This document shows, piece by piece, positions 1 to 4,397 of a stretch of 38,973 bases of DNA. Every line of letters starts with the position of its first letter. Positions within the stretch are counted from its first letter, which is position 1. Position numbers and translations under genes: made by a program. The stretch covers positions 1 to 38,973 of the forward strand of contig CAZWEM010000047.1 of NCBI GenBank assembly GCA_964632315.1, written 5' to 3'. The notes under the pieces were generated by a model that was not told the origin of the DNA, made no database searches, and saw only the letters and a program-made list of their open reading frames with translations. The DNA comes from an uncultured archaeon (GTDB lineage Archaea > Asgardarchaeota > Lokiarchaeia > Sigyniarchaeales > SOKP01).

Positions 1-101
1 TCGACACTCCGACCATTATAAAATAGAAGGAAAAAAATAAATACTTGAATACTAAAAAGAAAAAAAGAAATAATTAACTTATGATTGCCTTCTTTACCCT
101 T

Positions 102-215
102 TTATGGTCCTCCTTGGCCATCCGCTGGATACCAATTGGCCATTCCAACCCGAACAACATTTAAAAATGCGAATAATGTTATAATGAAGGTAAGAATTCT
201 ATAGCGCATCTTCAT
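102..215 (-). CDS. Small 37-aa putative secreted peptide precursor MKMRYRILTFIITLFAFLNVVRVGMA-NWYPADGQGGP (not in ORF track)
   Basis: Translated by hand. AGGAGG Shine-Dalgarno at 225-230 (minus), TTTAAATA TATA-like box at about 265-272 (minus), T-rich tract after the stop. Basic N-terminus, hydrophobic core, small residues at -3/-1 (G-M-A). Confidence 0.75.
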   Translation of the reverse strand: MKMRYRILTFIITLFAFLNVVRVGMANWYPADGQGGP

Positions 216-224
216 AGTATTTAT

Positions 225-275
225 CCTCCTATCTTTAAACTGATATTATTTTTAATCACTGAACTATTTAAAGTC
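225..275 (-). promoter_or_regulatory. TATA-like box and Shine-Dalgarno of the small peptide gene, in the divergent intergenic region
   Basis: Minus strand reads ...CTTTAAATAGTTC...AGATAGGAGGATAAATACTATG. Confidence 0.55.
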
Positions 276-323
276 CTAAAAATAAAACTATTTTAAATTC
301 ATTTGAATTAATTAATAACAAAA

Positions 324-3300
324 ATGCCCAATTTTCCTAAACTTAATTTCATTCAAGAAATTTCGAAAGATCTAGAATATTTGAATGAAAAGTATCAAAA
401 ACTTTTGAAAAAATTGAGTTTCTACTTAGGAATTAAACCCATAAAAAGCGAAATGAAATTTACACTTTCAAATATAAATTCTCCAGAAAAATCAATTCTA
501 ATTAATTTTGGAATAAAAAGACAAGTAAAAGATCAGAAAGTCTTCATTAGAATTTATAATGATTATAAAAAATTTTTAGAATTTATTGTATTGCGAGAAT
601 TGTTGATTTTATTTGTCGATAAAAAATTTTGGAAAAATAACTCTATAATTTTAATAGTAAATCAAATTGTAATGCAATTTTTAGTAAATCATCCACTAAT
701 GAATCAATGGCGTTCAAAAATCTGGAAAATTATTAGCCAAAATAAAAAATCAACAATATTATCAGACGAGTATTATCAATTGGAATCAATATTTAATAAT
801 ACTAATCTGAATAATTATCCAAATCCCTCTCAATTCTTTTTTCAATATTTAAACAAATATGGTCATTTGTTTCATAATACTAAAAGAACCTTTAGTTTTA
901 TATTGTTTAAAAATTACCAAGAAATGCTCCAATATTCACTATATAATGATAATTTGATTGAGACGTTAAGAATTTTAACTCTTATTTTTTATAAATCAAA
1001 GAATTTAATGAAACTACAAGATTACAAAAATTCTTTTACAATTCTAAAAAACCAAAATATTCTTGAAACACATTTAAGCTTTAGGAGATTTATTAGGAAT
1101 CTTCGTATTATTCAGAATAAAAGTTTTATCATTCCATCATATCAAATTAATTGGGCTTCAATAAATATAGCAATCATTATTATATTTATTGAATTCAATT
1201 CTAATCTGAATAAGAATGATGTTCTTCAATTTATTAATGAAATCCCATTCTTTGTTTCTCCAAAAAGTTCGATGATTAATTTTTCAGTAATGTGGGCTGG
1301 TTATTTCGTTATTCCATTTGATTATGTCAATGATTGTATCAAATTTATTAAGATGTTAAAGGAAAAAGGTGTAATAGTTAGATTTAAATTAATGTTAAGA
1401 GAATCCCATAGTCACTTTATTAATTTAAACTATTTTAAGGAAACTTTTAACAAAAAAGTTCTTCTAAATCCAAATCATTCTGATTATCGTGAGAATTTAG
1501 AGATAAATTTTTTTATTGAAACTGCTAAAATTAATAAAGTCAATCGATTATCAATACTTGAATTCCTAGTTCTTGATCGAATCAGATCCTACCGTGGATT
1601 GGGATTTGAGAATAAAGCAGAATATATCAAAATTTTCCGATCTGATCTTTTTAAAGAAATTTTAAATCAGAGAAATCTAATAAATGATTTAAAAAAGAAC
1701 CTTAAAAGAGTATTAACACAAAGTAATCTTAAAGAAAGATTGATTGAACTATTTATAGAGTATCAAAAGGAAGATTTTTTTTCAATTAAGAGAAAGATCT
1801 CTTCTTATCTTGAAATTTTAAAATATTTTGGGGAAGATATAGAAAATCGGAATTATACTAATATCGAATTTTTAAAAAATAAATTAAAAAATAAAAAACT
1901 TATACCTTCAATAGAATTCTACGTGTATTTAAAAGATGATTTGCTTAATGATTTTCTTACTACTTTTTTTGAAAATAAAGAGACCTTTAATGAAAAGAGT
2001 AATCTGTATAAAACATTTCTCGAATTGCTAAATTCATTCGCTAAATTAAAAATATTTAATCTTAATACAATCCGCATGATTATAAATGATGAAAAATTAA
2101 TCAATCAACTATTTCTCTCTAAAGAACGGAAGCTTAGTCAGATTTATAATAAATACAAAATTCAGGACATAAATTTATCTAATATAGAAGTAACTATAAA
2201 CAGTTTTATTGATTCAAAACCTCCAATTATAAAACCACTTTTGATTAGTACGATTAATACTAAAAAATATGAGAAAGATTACTTTCAATTACTTATAAAA
2301 GGAATCAAAAGTAATTTATTGAAATTAAATAATTTAAAGAAATTTTTTCCCCGTATTTTAATTGATTCCACTATAGATTTTATAACCGAAGAAAAAATCT
2401 TTTATGTGGAAATCTCATTACCTCCGCTAAATAAAACAGAAAAAAACACTTTTATTTCAATTTTATTAAGCTTATTTGGTTCAGATGATATTTACTTTGG
2501 GAGAAATCTTTTGTGGAGTGGTTTTTTTGGTGGGATTAAAATTTGGGATTTTTATGATGTTGAAAATAAAAATTTTTTTTATACTAAAGATCTTTTTAAT
2601 CAGTTTACCATATTTGCTAATAGCATTTTTAAGGCTAACGAAAATAATATGATTAAAGAAAAATTCCAAAATTTCAGAATTTTATTTTCTAACAATTTAG
2701 ATTTAATTGATTTTATAGATTCTGTAAACAAACGTAAATTATTAGAAAATGAAAGTTATAACCTTGAAGATCTTAATTTGCTTTATAATTTAAATCAAAA
2801 CCTTGAAGAGGTTATAAATGAAAATGAAAAATTAGTAATGAATAAGAAAGTATTTTTTTTTAAGAATCATGTTAAAAATTTAAGCTTTTTTCCTGCTTAT
2901 CATAGATTTGGTTTACAAAAATATATAACATACTTCTTTTCAAACAATTTAAATAAAATAGAGTTTAAAAATATATTAAATAACATTTTAAAAGTCCGAT
3001 ACCCGGCATGCATTGGTAAGTCTATTCCGTTTTTATTAGAATCTGTATTACCCATTGAAATATCTGATCCTCCATTTATGGATTATTTATTAGACCCAAA
3101 TCTGAAGTTACTCGAATTTTGTAGCTTTTTTATTAAAAGAACCATACAAATTTTTCATTTTGAAGGTAATTATACACCTCAAGGCTTGGATTATCAGATT
3201 AACATATTTAAAAGACATATTGAAAGCATCCTTTTTGAAAAAAATTATGAAGATAATCTTTTAAAGCCAAAGGTTTTTGATTTCTCCATAGATAAAGCAA

Positions 3301-3854
3301 TTTCTGAATATAGTTTTGAATCTCCGGAATTTAATGAACTATGTGAAATTTTTAGTTATCATTCCATCGATATAAAATCCTATATTGGAACTAAAAAAGT
3401 AAAAACAGTTGAAAGAATCCAAAACCTTTTGAAAAAGAAACTCATTTTCCCGTATATCAAGCTAAAAAATTTAGGCTTCCAAGAAAGCATTTACTTTATC
3501 ATCCCTAATCTAAACCAAGATTCGATGGAAACTCTCATGAAGATTTTTGGCTGGTTTAATTATGGTTTCATCCATGAAATTGAAGGTATTTATTTCATTC
3601 AAGGGTTTGAAGCACCAATTGATTTTGAGTATGGCTTGATGATGGAAATATACTTTCCAAAGTGTGAACTTGCGGAATTCAAGCAACTCTTTGATATGGT
3701 CTTTGAATACTTAGATATCGAGCATTATCTAATTTTAAAGGATTTTGTAAACGGGGACACCCTTGTTAAAAATGTGTACGAGGATCCCAACTTTTTTGAC
3801 CATTACCATCCATTGAGAAATGTTAAATATAATGGTAAAGATCACAATAAATAG
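324..3854 (+). CDS. Large 1176-aa protein with repeated Lrp/AsnC-like (wHTH + ligand-binding) modules; putative regulator
   Basis: Segments resembling the Lrp HTH-to-RAM junction recur: RRFIRNLRIIQNKSFIIPSYQINWASINI, FFPAYHRFGLQKYITYF, ERIQNLLKKKLIFPYIKLKNLGFQESIYFII. Assignment is by eye. Confidence 0.55.
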   Translation: MPNFPKLNFIQEISKDLEYLNEKYQKLLKKLSFYLGIKPIKSEMKFTLSNINSPEKSILINFGIKRQVKDQKVFIRIYNDYKKFLEFIVLRELLILFVDKKFWKNNSIILIVNQIVMQFLVNHPLMNQWRSKIWKIISQNKKSTILSDEYYQLESIFNNTNLNNYPNPSQFFFQYLNKYGHLFHNTKRTFSFILFKNYQEMLQYSLYNDNLIETLRILTLIFYKSKNLMKLQDYKNSFTILKNQNILETHLSFRRFIRNLRIIQNKSFIIPSYQINWASINIAIIIIFIEFNSNLNKNDVLQFINEIPFFVSPKSSMINFSVMWAGYFVIPFDYVNDCIKFIKMLKEKGVIVRFKLMLRESHSHFINLNYFKETFNKKVLLNPNHSDYRENLEINFFIETAKINKVNRLSILEFLVLDRIRSYRGLGFENKAEYIKIFRSDLFKEILNQRNLINDLKKNLKRVLTQSNLKERLIELFIEYQKEDFFSIKRKISSYLEILKYFGEDIENRNYTNIEFLKNKLKNKKLIPSIEFYVYLKDDLLNDFLTTFFENKETFNEKSNLYKTFLELLNSFAKLKIFNLNTIRMIINDEKLINQLFLSKERKLSQIYNKYKIQDINLSNIEVTINSFIDSKPPIIKPLLISTINTKKYEKDYFQLLIKGIKSNLLKLNNLKKFFPRILIDSTIDFITEEKIFYVEISLPPLNKTEKNTFISILLSLFGSDDIYFGRNLLWSGFFGGIKIWDFYDVENKNFFYTKDLFNQFTIFANSIFKANENNMIKEKFQNFRILFSNNLDLIDFIDSVNKRKLLENESYNLEDLNLLYNLNQNLEEVINENEKLVMNKKVFFFKNHVKNLSFFPAYHRFGLQKYITYFFSNNLNKIEFKNILNNILKVRYPACIGKSIPFLLESVLPIEISDPPFMDYLLDPNLKLLEFCSFFIKRTIQIFHFEGNYTPQGLDYQINIFKRHIESILFEKNYEDNLLKPKVFDFSIDKAISEYSFESPEFNELCEIFSYHSIDIKSYIGTKKVKTVERIQNLLKKKLIFPYIKLKNLGFQESIYFIIPNLNQDSMETLMKIFGWFNYGFIHEIEGIYFIQGFEAPIDFEYGLMMEIYFPKCELAEFKQLFDMVFEYLDIEHYLILKDFVNGDTLVKNVYEDPNFFDHYHPLRNVKYNGKDHNK

Positions 3855-4175
3855 GGATTTGACAAAATCATAAATTCAAAGATAAAATCCTTCTTAATAT
3901 CGGCATTTTACAATAGATTGCCAAGATTAGGAAAGTAGATCTTGATGGAAAGAAAATTTTTCTATTTAATCTTAGCAAATAAGTCATGATCATCCAGTTT
4001 ACTCAATTCTACAAGAAAAAATTTTTTGGGGGTGTATCACGGATTTCATTTTCATATTTAAAGGACCATTTTCACCAAAAATGTCAAACTTTAAAATGCA
4101 CATCTGAAGCTTCTTCTCACCAATTAAAAACGGACCCAAAACTTTAAAAGGCATACTCTGTCACAAAGTAGAATT

Positions 4176-4397
4176 ATGGCACTAGAGGCATTAATGATGG
4201 AGGATAAAAAGTTCCGTTGTCCAAGGTGTAGGAGGGAGAAAATTGTAGATCATGACACCGTGATAAGATGCGTGGTTTGTGATTTAGAATTTGATAAGAG
4301 TGATTTGGAAAGATTTGCAGAGGCGGATATTTTGGCGGTATCCGAAAAACGGGGAATCGCAAGGGTATTACTTGATGAGTTTTGGAAAGATAGGTAG
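4176..4397 (+). CDS. Small CPxC...CxxC zinc-ribbon protein
   Basis: CPRC-x13-CVVC; TTTAAAA TATA-like box about 30 nt upstream. Confidence 0.7.
   Translation: MALEALMMEDKKFRCPRCRREKIVDHDTVIRCVVCDLEFDKSDLERFAEADILAVSEKRGIARVLLDEFWKDR

What the first reader, a model, noticed from the sequence alone, without database searches (positions are those of the whole stretch)
102..3854. Unannotated secreted micro-peptide divergent from a giant multi-Lrp/AsnC-like protein: candidate peptide signalling pair
Seen: a 37-codon ORF with a strong SD, a TATA-like box and a T-rich terminator. It is essentially a signal peptide plus an 11-aa tail NWYPADGQGGP, and sits head-to-head (108 bp) with a 1176-aa protein containing several Lrp-like HTH/ligand modules. 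Established: bacterial Phr/PapR/SHP pheromones are short signal-peptide precursors encoded next to their cognate regulators. Inference: an analogous archaeal peptide-regulator (quorum or kin signalling) system built on a different receptor fold.
Basis: partly seen in the sequence, partly recalled or inferred. Interest (0 to 1): 0.75.

Follow-up and report, generated by a model that had tools for sequence, protein, structure and literature searches.

The report
Asgard exported micropeptide and giant partner
A tiny unannotated gene for an export-signal-plus-11-residue peptide is a real, conserved partner of a 1176-residue Asgard-only protein built from a dead protease domain and four Lrp-like modules; it may be an archaeal peptide-plus-regulator system, but neither secretion nor sensing has been shown.

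Summary
The 37-codon ORF (102-215, minus strand) has a BRE/TATA box, a Shine-Dalgarno site and oligo-T terminators. It evolves under purifying selection. In this 4.45-Mb genome its family has exactly two members, each beside one of the two paralogues of the giant gene.

Across relatives, about 40 of 48 peptides of this type lie within about 1.2 kb of a giant-gene homologue, in three different arrangements, and peptide types track the giant-protein tree.

The giant protein has no Pfam or PDB sequence match. Its AlphaFold model (pLDDT 83) shows:
- an N-terminal zincin-like domain without HExxH;
- winged-helix plus RAM modules that match the tandem Lrp-like enzyme NirDL (Z 14.1).

So "Lrp-like" is right by fold, not by sequence.

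Limits on the signalling reading:
- two thirds of giant-gene loci, and most genomes with the gene, have no such peptide;
- a Cys-containing peptide subfamily is mostly unlinked;
- some loci add a B12-radical-SAM gene, which suggests peptide modification;
- co-folding gave only weak support;
- expression could not be tested.

A Zn-ribbon gene (4176-4397) is a further cassette member.

The scan found this system before in another genome (e1-3927904, e1-3927906). I found no published description.

The parts
102..215 (-). Micropeptide precursor gene (37 codons plus TAA). It has an n-region MKMRYR, a 15-residue h-region, a c-region ending G-M-A, and a predicted mature tail NWYPADGQGGP.
224..230 (-). 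Shine-Dalgarno AGGAGGA, 8 nt upstream of the ATG of the mini-gene.
   Evidence: GGAGG is conserved in the paralogous mini-genes
265..277 (-). Archaeal promoter of the mini-gene: BRE-like AGGAC followed by TATA TTTAAATA.
   Evidence: the TTTAAAT box is invariant in 8 of 8 A-type mini-genes
31..70 (-). Oligo-T runs (T7, T5, T7) downstream of the stop codon; likely archaeal terminators.
   Evidence: read directly
291..299 (+). TATA-like TTTTAAATT about 30 nt before the ATG of the giant gene, with no Shine-Dalgarno site. This implies a leaderless or short-leader mRNA and back-to-back divergent promoters.
   Evidence: read directly; inference
324..3854 (+). Giant cytoplasmic protein, 1176 aa (P0001). 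The family is restricted to one Asgard (Promethearchaeota/Loki-type) family.
363..938 (+). Residues 14-205: zincin-like (gluzincin) fold. The HExxH site reads L-R-E-x-x and there is no conserved His, Cys or Asp, so this is a presumed dead peptidase domain.
945..1523 (+). Residues 208-400: winged helix (208-272) plus a RAM-like beta-alpha-beta-beta-alpha-beta domain. This is Lrp-like module 1.
1554..2213 (+). Residues 411-630: long helical insert between modules 1 and 2.
2229..2624 (+). Residues 636-767: RAM-like module 2. Together with module 1 it superposes on the two Lrp-like halves of NirDL.
2691..3155 (+). Residues 790-944: helical segment plus a less canonical ferredoxin-like domain (module 3).
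   Evidence: secondary-structure pattern only
3291..3752 (+). Residues 990-1143: three-helix HTH-like segment plus a beta-alpha-beta-beta-alpha-beta domain (module 4). This is the most conserved part of the family.
4176..4397 (+). 73-aa Zn-ribbon protein (CPRC...CxxC). Homologues recur in 8 related cassettes, either after the giant gene or at the end of the peptide operon.

Best explanation
A lineage-specific cassette couples one or more mini-genes for an exported peptide to a paralogue clade of a giant cytoplasmic protein, plus a small Zn-ribbon protein and, in some relatives, a B12-radical-SAM enzyme.

Shown:
- The mini-gene is real, under purifying selection, and has its own BRE/TATA box, Shine-Dalgarno site and terminator.
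- The mini-gene and the giant gene are co-inherited and stay adjacent through rearrangements.
- The giant protein is soluble and basic. By predicted fold it is a zincin-like domain lacking the metal ligands, followed by winged-helix plus RAM (Lrp-like) modules; two of these pack like the tandem Lrp-like enzyme NirDL.

Inferred:
- The precursor is exported by Sec and cut after the conserved small-x-small site, releasing an 8-13-residue aromatic, Gly-rich, Pro-ended peptide.
- The giant protein is a single-chain Lrp-type DNA-binding regulator acting on the back-to-back promoters it shares with the mini-gene(s).
- It recognises the peptide or its precursor tail, perhaps in the disabled peptidase groove or at a RAM interface. 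In that case peptide level would feed back on transcription.

Whether the peptide acts outside the cell as a signal, is a modified product, or both, is open.
For: - Real gene.
- One-to-one pairing in the own genome: two giant paralogues and two peptide genes, each pair adjacent, with no other peptide hit among 108,871 short ORFs.
- Across relatives, 22 of 65 complete giant-gene loci carry a peptide within about 1.2 kb.
- From the peptide side, about 40 of 48 non-Cys-type peptides in 161 genomes are adjacent to a giant gene or its remnant. The giant genes plus flanks cover well under 1% of a genome.
- Three arrangements occur (divergent upstream, co-directional upstream, co-directional downstream), and peptide types follow the giant-protein tree.
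- Fold: model pLDDT 83, pTM 0.82. NirDL 4ch7 gives Foldseek E 2e-4 and Z 14.1, rmsd 5.1, 306 of 309 residues aligned. Lrp/AsnC regulators give Z about 5 with 142 of 150 residues aligned.
- Residues 14-205 have zincins as top matches: Z 7.7-5.7 with about 170 residues aligned, selecase probability 0.66, and M48, M78 and SprT among the Atlas rows.
- There is no transmembrane segment; pI is 9.2 overall and 10.3 for WH1.
- Co-folding of residues 1-770 with the precursor gave weak support: score 0.43, best of 3 controls 0.00. The mark was reached by 58 of 80 solved complexes and 2 of 110 mismatched pairs, but at 0.60 or under by only 7 of those 80 solved complexes and by both mismatches that passed. 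The runs agree in at least 51% of contacts, and the partner pLDDT is at least 39.
Against: - The pairing is facultative. 43 of 65 complete loci have no recognisable adjacent peptide, including a clade of about 40.
- 111 of 161 genomes have the giant gene but only 52 have any peptide. In the own genus the figures are 37/41 against 9/41.
- The conserved residues of the zincin-like domain (R91, E92, N113) are kept in the peptide-less clade too, so the core function of the family does not need this peptide.
- DNA binding is not shown, and there is no sequence match to any HTH or Lrp family.
- Lrp-like folds can be enzymes, as NirDL is.
- Modules 3 and 4 rest on the secondary-structure pattern only.
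- The zincin match is in the middling Z range.
- The co-fold support is weak, and no interface was reported.
- Export and cleavage were not tested (no SignalP, no expression data).
- B12-radical-SAM genes in some cassettes suggest maturation chemistry rather than plain sensing.
Confidence: 0.4

Rival explanations
1. RiPP-type maturation cassette. The mini-gene encodes a precursor whose C-terminal Gly/Pro-rich core is chemically modified (by the B12-radical-SAM enzyme where one is present). The giant protein would be a non-catalytic maturation scaffold or precursor-binding chaperone, with winged helices acting like RiPP recognition elements and the dead zincin groove holding the peptide, rather than a transcription factor.
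For: - B12-binding radical SAM genes sit inside peptide operons next to the giant gene. Examples are L072 (peptide, rSAM, peptide, Zn-ribbon), L095, and L175 (three peptides then rSAM, divergent from the giant gene). Others lie next to unlinked peptides (L116, L125, L120, L122).
- The same rSAM family directly flanks peptide-less giant genes in L014 and L035.
- The own genome has only 5 homologues of these rSAMs in 4.45 Mb, so the adjacency is enriched.
- Tandem precursor copies with variable tails (L004 has 4, L005 has 3) are typical of RiPP clusters.
Against: - No rSAM lies near either pair in the own genome, nor in L005, whose flank holds housekeeping genes. The window's far side is cut by the contig end.
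- The N-terminal part looks like a Sec signal peptide with a conserved -3/-1 cleavage motif, not like a usual RiPP leader.
- No protease, cyclase or exporter is conserved in the cassette.
- The zincin-like domain has lost its metal ligands.
Confidence: 0.2
2. Membrane micro-protein. The small protein is not cleaved. It stays as a single-pass membrane peptide with a tiny outside tail, and the giant protein merely regulates its gene or is linked for another reason.
For: - The hydrophobic parts are well conserved within peptide types across genera.
- In the C and D types the uncharged stretch is 21-23 residues, long enough for a transmembrane helix.
- Small hydrophobic proteins are common regulators of membrane complexes (general knowledge).
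Against: - In the window's type (A) and in type B the h-region is only 13-15 residues. It is followed by a polar or charged residue and a c-region with small residues at -3 and -1.
- The most conserved positions are the last five residues and the stop placement.
- In this AT-rich (23% GC) region the tail codons are GC-rich.
Confidence: 0.15
3. Cis-acting arrest or leader peptide. Translation of the mini-ORF stalls at the terminal G-G-P-stop and controls a neighbouring gene.
For: - The C-terminal Pro before the stop is nearly invariant (24 of 26).
- Pro-stop and SecM-type (...GIRAGP) endings are known stalling contexts in bacteria (general knowledge).
Against: - The mini-genes are divergent from, upstream of, or downstream of the giant gene, so no single cis arrangement is conserved.
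- Each has its own promoter and terminator.
- Tandem arrays of 3-4 copies occur.
- The conserved signal-peptide layout would be unexplained.
Confidence: 0.03
4. No functional link. The adjacency reflects shared ancestry of a chromosomal neighbourhood only.
For: Many loci are related by descent, so the counts are not independent. The flanks are otherwise housekeeping genes.
Against: - Adjacency survives changes of side and strand, and occurs at both unlinked paralogues in one genome.
- Other neighbours are not conserved.
- A decayed giant-gene remnant still sits beside a peptide in G106:C15.
Confidence: 0.04

Closest known systems
RRNPP-type peptide/receptor cassettes of Firmicutes and their phages (Rap-Phr, PlcR-PapR, NprR-NprX, Rgg-SHP, AimR-AimP)
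   Same: - A short precursor (about 37-41 aa) with a signal-peptide-like N-terminus.
- The conserved, presumably active part lies at the extreme C-terminus.
- The peptide gene is next to a cytoplasmic protein gene, either divergent or just downstream.
- Paralogue-specific peptide variants occur.
- Opp-type peptide-binding proteins exist in the genome.
   Different: - The partner has no TPR domain and no detectable sequence relation. It is a 1176-aa fusion of a dead zincin and four Lrp-like modules.
- The host is an Asgard archaeon.
- The pairing is facultative within the protein family.
- Export, processing, re-import and binding are all untested.
Lrp/AsnC (FFRP) transcription regulators, e.g. 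Sulfolobus tokodaii ST1022 (2e7w) and E. coli Lrp (2gqq)
   Same: - A winged-helix plus RAM beta-alpha-beta-beta-alpha-beta module (Z 5.0-5.3, about 142 of 150 residues aligned).
- The gene is divergent from a small neighbouring gene, as is common for Lrp-type regulators.
   Different: - No Pfam or PDB sequence match.
- Four modules in one chain instead of a 150-aa subunit that oligomerises.
- An extra zincin-like domain and a 220-residue helical insert.
- Ligand and DNA binding are unknown.
Siroheme decarboxylase NirDL / AhbAB (4ch7, 4czc)
   Same: It is the best structural match. Two Lrp-like modules in one chain form a pseudo-dimer (Z 14.1, rmsd 5.1, 306 of 309 residues aligned to model residues 209-767; Foldseek E 2e-4).
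   Different: - 5% identity.
- A 220-residue insert between the modules.
- No haem or haem d1 biosynthesis context in the window or in relatives.
- The protein is four times larger.
Gluzincin metallopeptidases (M1 aminopeptidases, thermolysin M4, the minigluzincin selecase 4qhj) and M78 ImmA/IrrE
   Same: - Residues 14-205 adopt a zincin-like beta-sheet plus active-site-helix fold (Z 7.7-5.7; selecase about 20% identity).
- A zincin joined to a winged helix recalls ImmA/IrrE-type regulators.
   Different: - HExxH is replaced by L-R-E-x-x and the third ligand position is Asn. No His, Cys or Asp is conserved.
- A profile search of 1.84 billion representatives finds only family members.

Membership tests
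RRNPP-type peptide-receptor system | A short signal-peptide-bearing precursor gene adjacent to its receptor gene | tested here: met
   108-bp divergent spacing in the window. Both pairs are adjacent in the own genome. About 40 of 48 non-Cys-type peptides are adjacent in relatives.
RRNPP-type peptide-receptor system | The receptor has a TPR peptide-binding domain (plus an HTH or phosphatase domain) | tested here: not met
   No Pfam TPR match. The model shows zincin-like, winged-helix and RAM domains, with no TPR solenoid.
RRNPP-type peptide-receptor system | The peptide is exported, processed, re-imported by Opp, and binds the receptor | not testable with these tools
   Only feasibility is shown: a conserved -3/-1 cleavage motif and 5-6 SBP_bac_5 genes. 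The co-fold gave weak support only.
Lrp/AsnC (FFRP) family | Sequence match to the HTH_AsnC-type or AsnC_trans_reg models | tested here: not met
   No Pfam family at E<=1 for the whole protein or for 30 C-terminal modules. No PDB sequence hit.
Lrp/AsnC (FFRP) family | Winged HTH followed by a RAM beta-alpha-beta-beta-alpha-beta fold | tested here: met
   Model residues 207-369 against ST1022: Z 5.3, 142 of 150 residues aligned. E. coli Lrp: Z 5.0. NirDL (two such modules): Z 14.1. Modules 3-4 are supported by secondary-structure pattern only.
Lrp/AsnC (FFRP) family | Sequence-specific DNA binding modulated by a small ligand | not testable with these tools
   The only indication is the basic pI (9.2 overall; 10.3 for WH1).
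Siroheme decarboxylase (AhbA/B, NirD/L/G/H) | Tandem Lrp-like modules forming the active pseudo-dimer | tested here: met
   4ch7: Z 14.1, rmsd 5.1, 306 of 309 residues aligned; Foldseek E 2e-4.
Siroheme decarboxylase (AhbA/B, NirD/L/G/H) | Sequence homology and a haem-pathway gene context | tested here: not met
   5% identity and no sequence hit. The neighbours are scpAB, arcTGT, Trm5, thermosome and similar genes.
Zincin/gluzincin metallopeptidases | Zincin fold (mixed sheet plus active-site helix) | tested here: inconclusive
   24 of the top 28 rows in the wide search are zincins, but with Z 5.5-7.7. Foldseek gives selecase probability 0.66 with E 0.34. Atlas TM scores are below 0.5.
Zincin/gluzincin metallopeptidases | HExxH motif plus a third metal ligand | tested here: not met
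   The aligned helix reads (I/L)-L-R-E-x-x in 46 sequences, Asn113 sits at the third-ligand distance, and no His is conserved.
RiPP biosynthetic gene cluster | A precursor peptide encoded next to a modifying enzyme | tested here: inconclusive
   None in the window (the contig ends 101 bp past the mini-gene) and none at the second own-genome pair. A B12-radical-SAM gene is present in L072, L095, L175, L116 and L125.
Sec/SPase I signal peptide | A basic n-region, a hydrophobic h-region, and a c-region with small residues at -3 and -1 | tested here: met
   By inspection and column counts: -3 is G, V, C, S or A in 26 of 26, and -1 is A, G or S in 25 of 26. No dedicated predictor was available.

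The most novel reading that the evidence does not exclude
A ribosomal peptide signalling system in archaea, for which I found no precedent. Sec-exported 8-13-residue aromatic, Gly-rich, Pro-ended peptides, with paralogue-specific tails that act as pherotypes, are taken up again. They are then sensed by a giant single-chain Lrp-type regulator that uses a disabled metallopeptidase domain as its peptide-binding pocket. This would be functionally analogous to RRNPP quorum sensing but built from unrelated folds, in the archaeal lineage closest to eukaryotes.
Probability: 0.17. Interest if true: 0.85.

Novelty: new variant of a known kind. Interest (0 to 1): 0.62.

Why it matters
As far as I know (my own knowledge; the three paper searches, turned up none), no ribosomal-peptide communication or peptide-regulator circuit has been described in archaea. 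Cell-cell interactions of Asgard archaea, which are syntrophic and related to the eukaryotic ancestor, are poorly understood.

This cassette offers a concrete, testable candidate: a small set of defined peptides, and a soluble partner protein with a confident model.

Even if signalling is wrong, three things are of interest:
- The giant protein is a previously uncharacterised, family-wide Asgard protein that fuses a dead zincin to four Lrp-like modules.
- The mini-genes are unannotated in public records.
- The optional B12-radical-SAM gene hints at archaeal peptide natural products.

Tried and rejected
- Pfam on the giant protein, on the peptide and on 30 C-terminal modules: nothing significant.
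- PDB sequence or profile searches with the whole family and with the C-terminal module: only noise.
- hhalign between the four modules: no detectable internal sequence repeat.
- ESM Atlas feature search on the N-terminal domain: no usable hit.
- Profile search of 1.84 billion representatives with the N-terminal domain: only family members, no relative with an intact HExxH.
Transcription is therefore untested and read laying was not used.
- A relaxed scan for other hydrophobic mini-ORFs beside peptide-less giant genes: nothing convincing.
- Class III (pilin-type) signal peptide: rejected, because there is no Gly or Ala after the basic n-region (read).
- Double-glycine leader: rejected, because the GG lies at the C-terminal end.
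- Several NG86 pairs (the three L034 pairs, L055 vs L048 and L060c vs L072) were shifted by one or more codons and are not used.
- Three paper searches found no description of the system. One candidate preprint mentions Asgard only for lactococcin homologues.
- The idea that the Cys-type peptides are the unlinked partners of the peptide-less clade: rejected. They are absent from the two largest genera that carry the giant gene and present in a genome without it.

Full report
**Observation**

The window is the start of contig C47 of a 4.45-Mb Asgard (Promethearchaeota/Loki-type) assembly.

On the minus strand a 37-codon ORF runs from ATG 215-213 to TAA 104-102. Its flanking signals are as follows:
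- AGGAGGA at 230-224.
- TTTAAATA at 272-265, with a purine-rich AGGAC just upstream.
- T7, T5 and T7 runs at 66-31, after the stop.
- 108 bp further on, on the plus strand, the 1176-codon ORF (324-3854) starts. Its own TTTTAAATT box lies about 30 nt upstream and there is no Shine-Dalgarno site.

So the two genes have back-to-back promoters. The contig ends 101 bp past the mini-gene, so anything beyond it is unseen.

**Is the mini-ORF a gene?**

Yes, on five lines of evidence.
- tblastn and an iterated HMM find the same kind of ORF in relatives. All have a basic n-region, a hydrophobic stretch, a small-x-small site and a short tail ending G-x-G-G-P then stop.
- The two nearest loci carry tandem arrays: four copies in L004 and three in L005.
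- The window peptide against its L004 orthologue has saturated synonymous change (pS 0.88) but pN 0.18, giving a ratio of 0.21.
- All eight A-type mini-genes have an invariant TTTAAAT box and a GGAGG site at fixed spacing.
- In the alignment of 26 peptides, position -3 is G, V, C, S or A in all. Position -1 is A, G or S in 25. The last residue is Pro in 24.

In the window's type the h-region is 15 residues. It is followed by Arg and the c-region V-G-M-A, which is the signature of a cleavable Sec signal peptide rather than a membrane anchor. Cleavage would release NWYPADGQGGP. No signal-peptide predictor or expression data were available.

**Is it linked to the giant gene?**

- In the own genome the giant family has two members, C47 and C16, which are 29% identical.
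- The peptide HMM, run over 108,871 short ORFs, has exactly two significant hits (E about 1e-14). One is beside each paralogue: divergent at 108 bp here, and co-directional 77 bp downstream at C16.
- Among 65 complete homologous loci from public genomes, 22 carry a peptide gene within about 1.2 kb. It may be divergent upstream, co-directional upstream or co-directional downstream.
- On a tree of the giant proteins the peptide types (A to E by tail) map to clades. A clade of about 40 loci has none.

Searching from the peptide side in the 161 genomes held for the class found about 100 peptide ORFs in 52 genomes. After fetching their contexts, the counts split by type:
- Non-Cys types: about 40 of 48 lie next to a giant gene. 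One of these (G106:C15) lies next to a 73-residue remnant of one, beside LeuRS.
- Cys type (tail x-P-G-C-x-E-x-x-P): about 50 ORFs, highly conserved, mostly unlinked, and also present in a genome that lacks the giant gene.

The giant family itself is confined to one taxonomic family. It is found in 110 of 134 genomes there and in 0 of 26 genomes elsewhere in the class. It is mostly single copy, and most carriers have no peptide. In the own genus, 37 of 41 genomes have the giant gene but only 9 of 41 have a peptide.

The pairing is therefore strong but belongs to particular paralogue clades. It is not a property of the whole family.

**What is the giant protein?**

There is no Pfam hit at E<=1 and no PDB sequence hit. 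The four modules show no detectable sequence similarity to one another. The AlphaFold2 model built from 46 homologues is confident (pLDDT 83, pTM 0.82).

- *Residues 209-767.* Foldseek's only significant matches are the siroheme decarboxylase NirDL (E 2e-4). VIA-align gives Z 14.1 with 306 of 309 NirDL residues aligned to this range. Single Lrp/AsnC regulators align to residues 207-369 at Z about 5.
- *Residues 14-205.* Folded alone (pLDDT 84), the N-terminal 272 residues give an almost pure list of zincin peptidases for this range: M1, M4, LTA4H, DPP3, M30 and M36, at Z 7.7-5.5 with about 170 residues aligned.
- *Residues 208-272.* The same N-terminal model gives winged helices (cullin WHB, Rpa2, MCM) here.
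- *Further zincin support.* Foldseek gives selecase probability 0.66. Atlas rows include M48, M78/IrrE and SprT. These scores are middling but consistent with each other.
- *Active site.* The helix that should carry HExxH reads (I/L)-L-R-E-x-x in all 46 sequences. Asn113 sits at the third-ligand distance, and no His, Cys or Asp is conserved. The domain is best read as a dead peptidase.
- *Remote homologues.* A profile search of 1.84 billion representatives finds only family members.
- *Residues 790-944 and 990-1143.* These repeat the pattern of helices followed by a beta-alpha-beta-beta-alpha-beta domain. I could not fold them separately.
- *Physical properties.* The protein has no hydrophobic window long enough for a membrane helix. 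It is basic (pI 9.2 overall; 10.3 for WH1).

**Other cassette members**

- The 73-aa Zn-ribbon gene after the giant gene (4176-4397; CPRC...CxxC) has homologues in eight related cassettes. They lie after the giant gene (L004, L005, L010) or at the end of the peptide operon (L009, L060, L072). The own genome has two further, unlinked copies.
- B12-binding radical SAM genes lie inside peptide operons in L072, L095 and L175. Others lie beside unlinked peptides in L116, L125, L120 and L122, and directly beside peptide-less giant genes in L014 and L035.
- The own genome has only five homologues of these enzymes, and none is near either pair.
- Other neighbours are housekeeping genes and are not conserved.

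**Mechanism**

The best-supported reading is a peptide-plus-dedicated-partner cassette. The giant protein would be a cytoplasmic, Lrp-type, probably DNA-binding protein that shares a bidirectional promoter region with genes for an exported peptide, and that recognises the peptide or its precursor.

A co-fold of residues 1-770 with the precursor passed the tool's mark only weakly:
- Score 0.43; best of 3 controls 0.00.
- The mark was reached by 58 of 80 solved complexes and 2 of 110 mismatched pairs. At 0.60 or under it was reached by only 7 of those 80 solved complexes and by both mismatches that passed.
- The runs agree in at least 51% of contacts, and the partner pLDDT is at least 39.

Opp-type binding proteins exist in the genome, so re-uptake is feasible. 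Nothing shows that it happens. The radical SAM association keeps a RiPP-like maturation reading alive. The conserved hydrophobic segments of some types keep a membrane micro-protein reading alive.

Similar peptide-senses-neighbour claims elsewhere in this scan were later priced at 10-25%. I put the full quorum or kin signalling reading at about 17%.

**Novelty**

- Three paper searches and one paper read found no description.
- The scan itself had already flagged and followed up the same system in another genome, the one holding L005 (e1-3927904 and e1-3927906). My results agree with those notes.
- This report adds: the dead zincin domain, the NirDL-like packing, the Zn-ribbon and radical SAM members, the unlinked Cys-type subfamily, and the finding that most family members lack a peptide.

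Noticed in passing
L117, L120-L127, L129-L163 (e.g. L125:5206-5331; L034:9727-9855): A separate, very conserved 36-40-aa mini-protein family with a tail x-P-G-C-x-E-x-x-P, an invariant Cys and a lipobox-like I-P-G-C. It occurs in 1-3 copies per genome across many genera and is unannotated. It is mostly unlinked to the giant gene, and sometimes lies directly after a B12-radical-SAM gene or beside a PurM/AIRS-like gene.
   Followed up: partly
window 4176-4397 (+): A 73-aa Zn-ribbon protein (CPRC...CxxC, then LEF.K.D...ILA.SEK) recurs in the peptide/giant-gene cassettes of relatives. The own genome has two more copies (C55:11844-12023 and C6:34974-35135).
   Followed up: partly
window 1-3900 versus the rest: The cassette is 21-24% GC (30% in its last kb) against 31-38% in the next seven kb (scpAB and the genes beyond). 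It sits directly upstream of scpA-scpB, where relatives noted elsewhere in the scan have smc. The contig starts here, so the position of smc in this genome was not checked.
   Followed up: no
L173:6371-7217 (G106:C15): A C-type peptide gene lies next to a 73-residue N-terminal remnant of a giant gene, followed by leucyl-tRNA synthetase. This is an apparent decayed cassette.
   Followed up: partly
L009, L057, L060, L069, L072, L029, L040, L055 mini-genes: Many mini-genes have no in-frame ATG before the hydrophobic region. They have a Leu codon followed by Lys at the expected start, which suggests frequent TTG initiation.
   Followed up: no
L005:5511-5636 versus L005:5776-5901: Two recently duplicated mini-genes differ by three non-synonymous changes and one synonymous change. 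Two of the three amino-acid changes are in the tail (D-G to G-S). This hints at tail diversification, but the numbers are too small to test.
   Followed up: no
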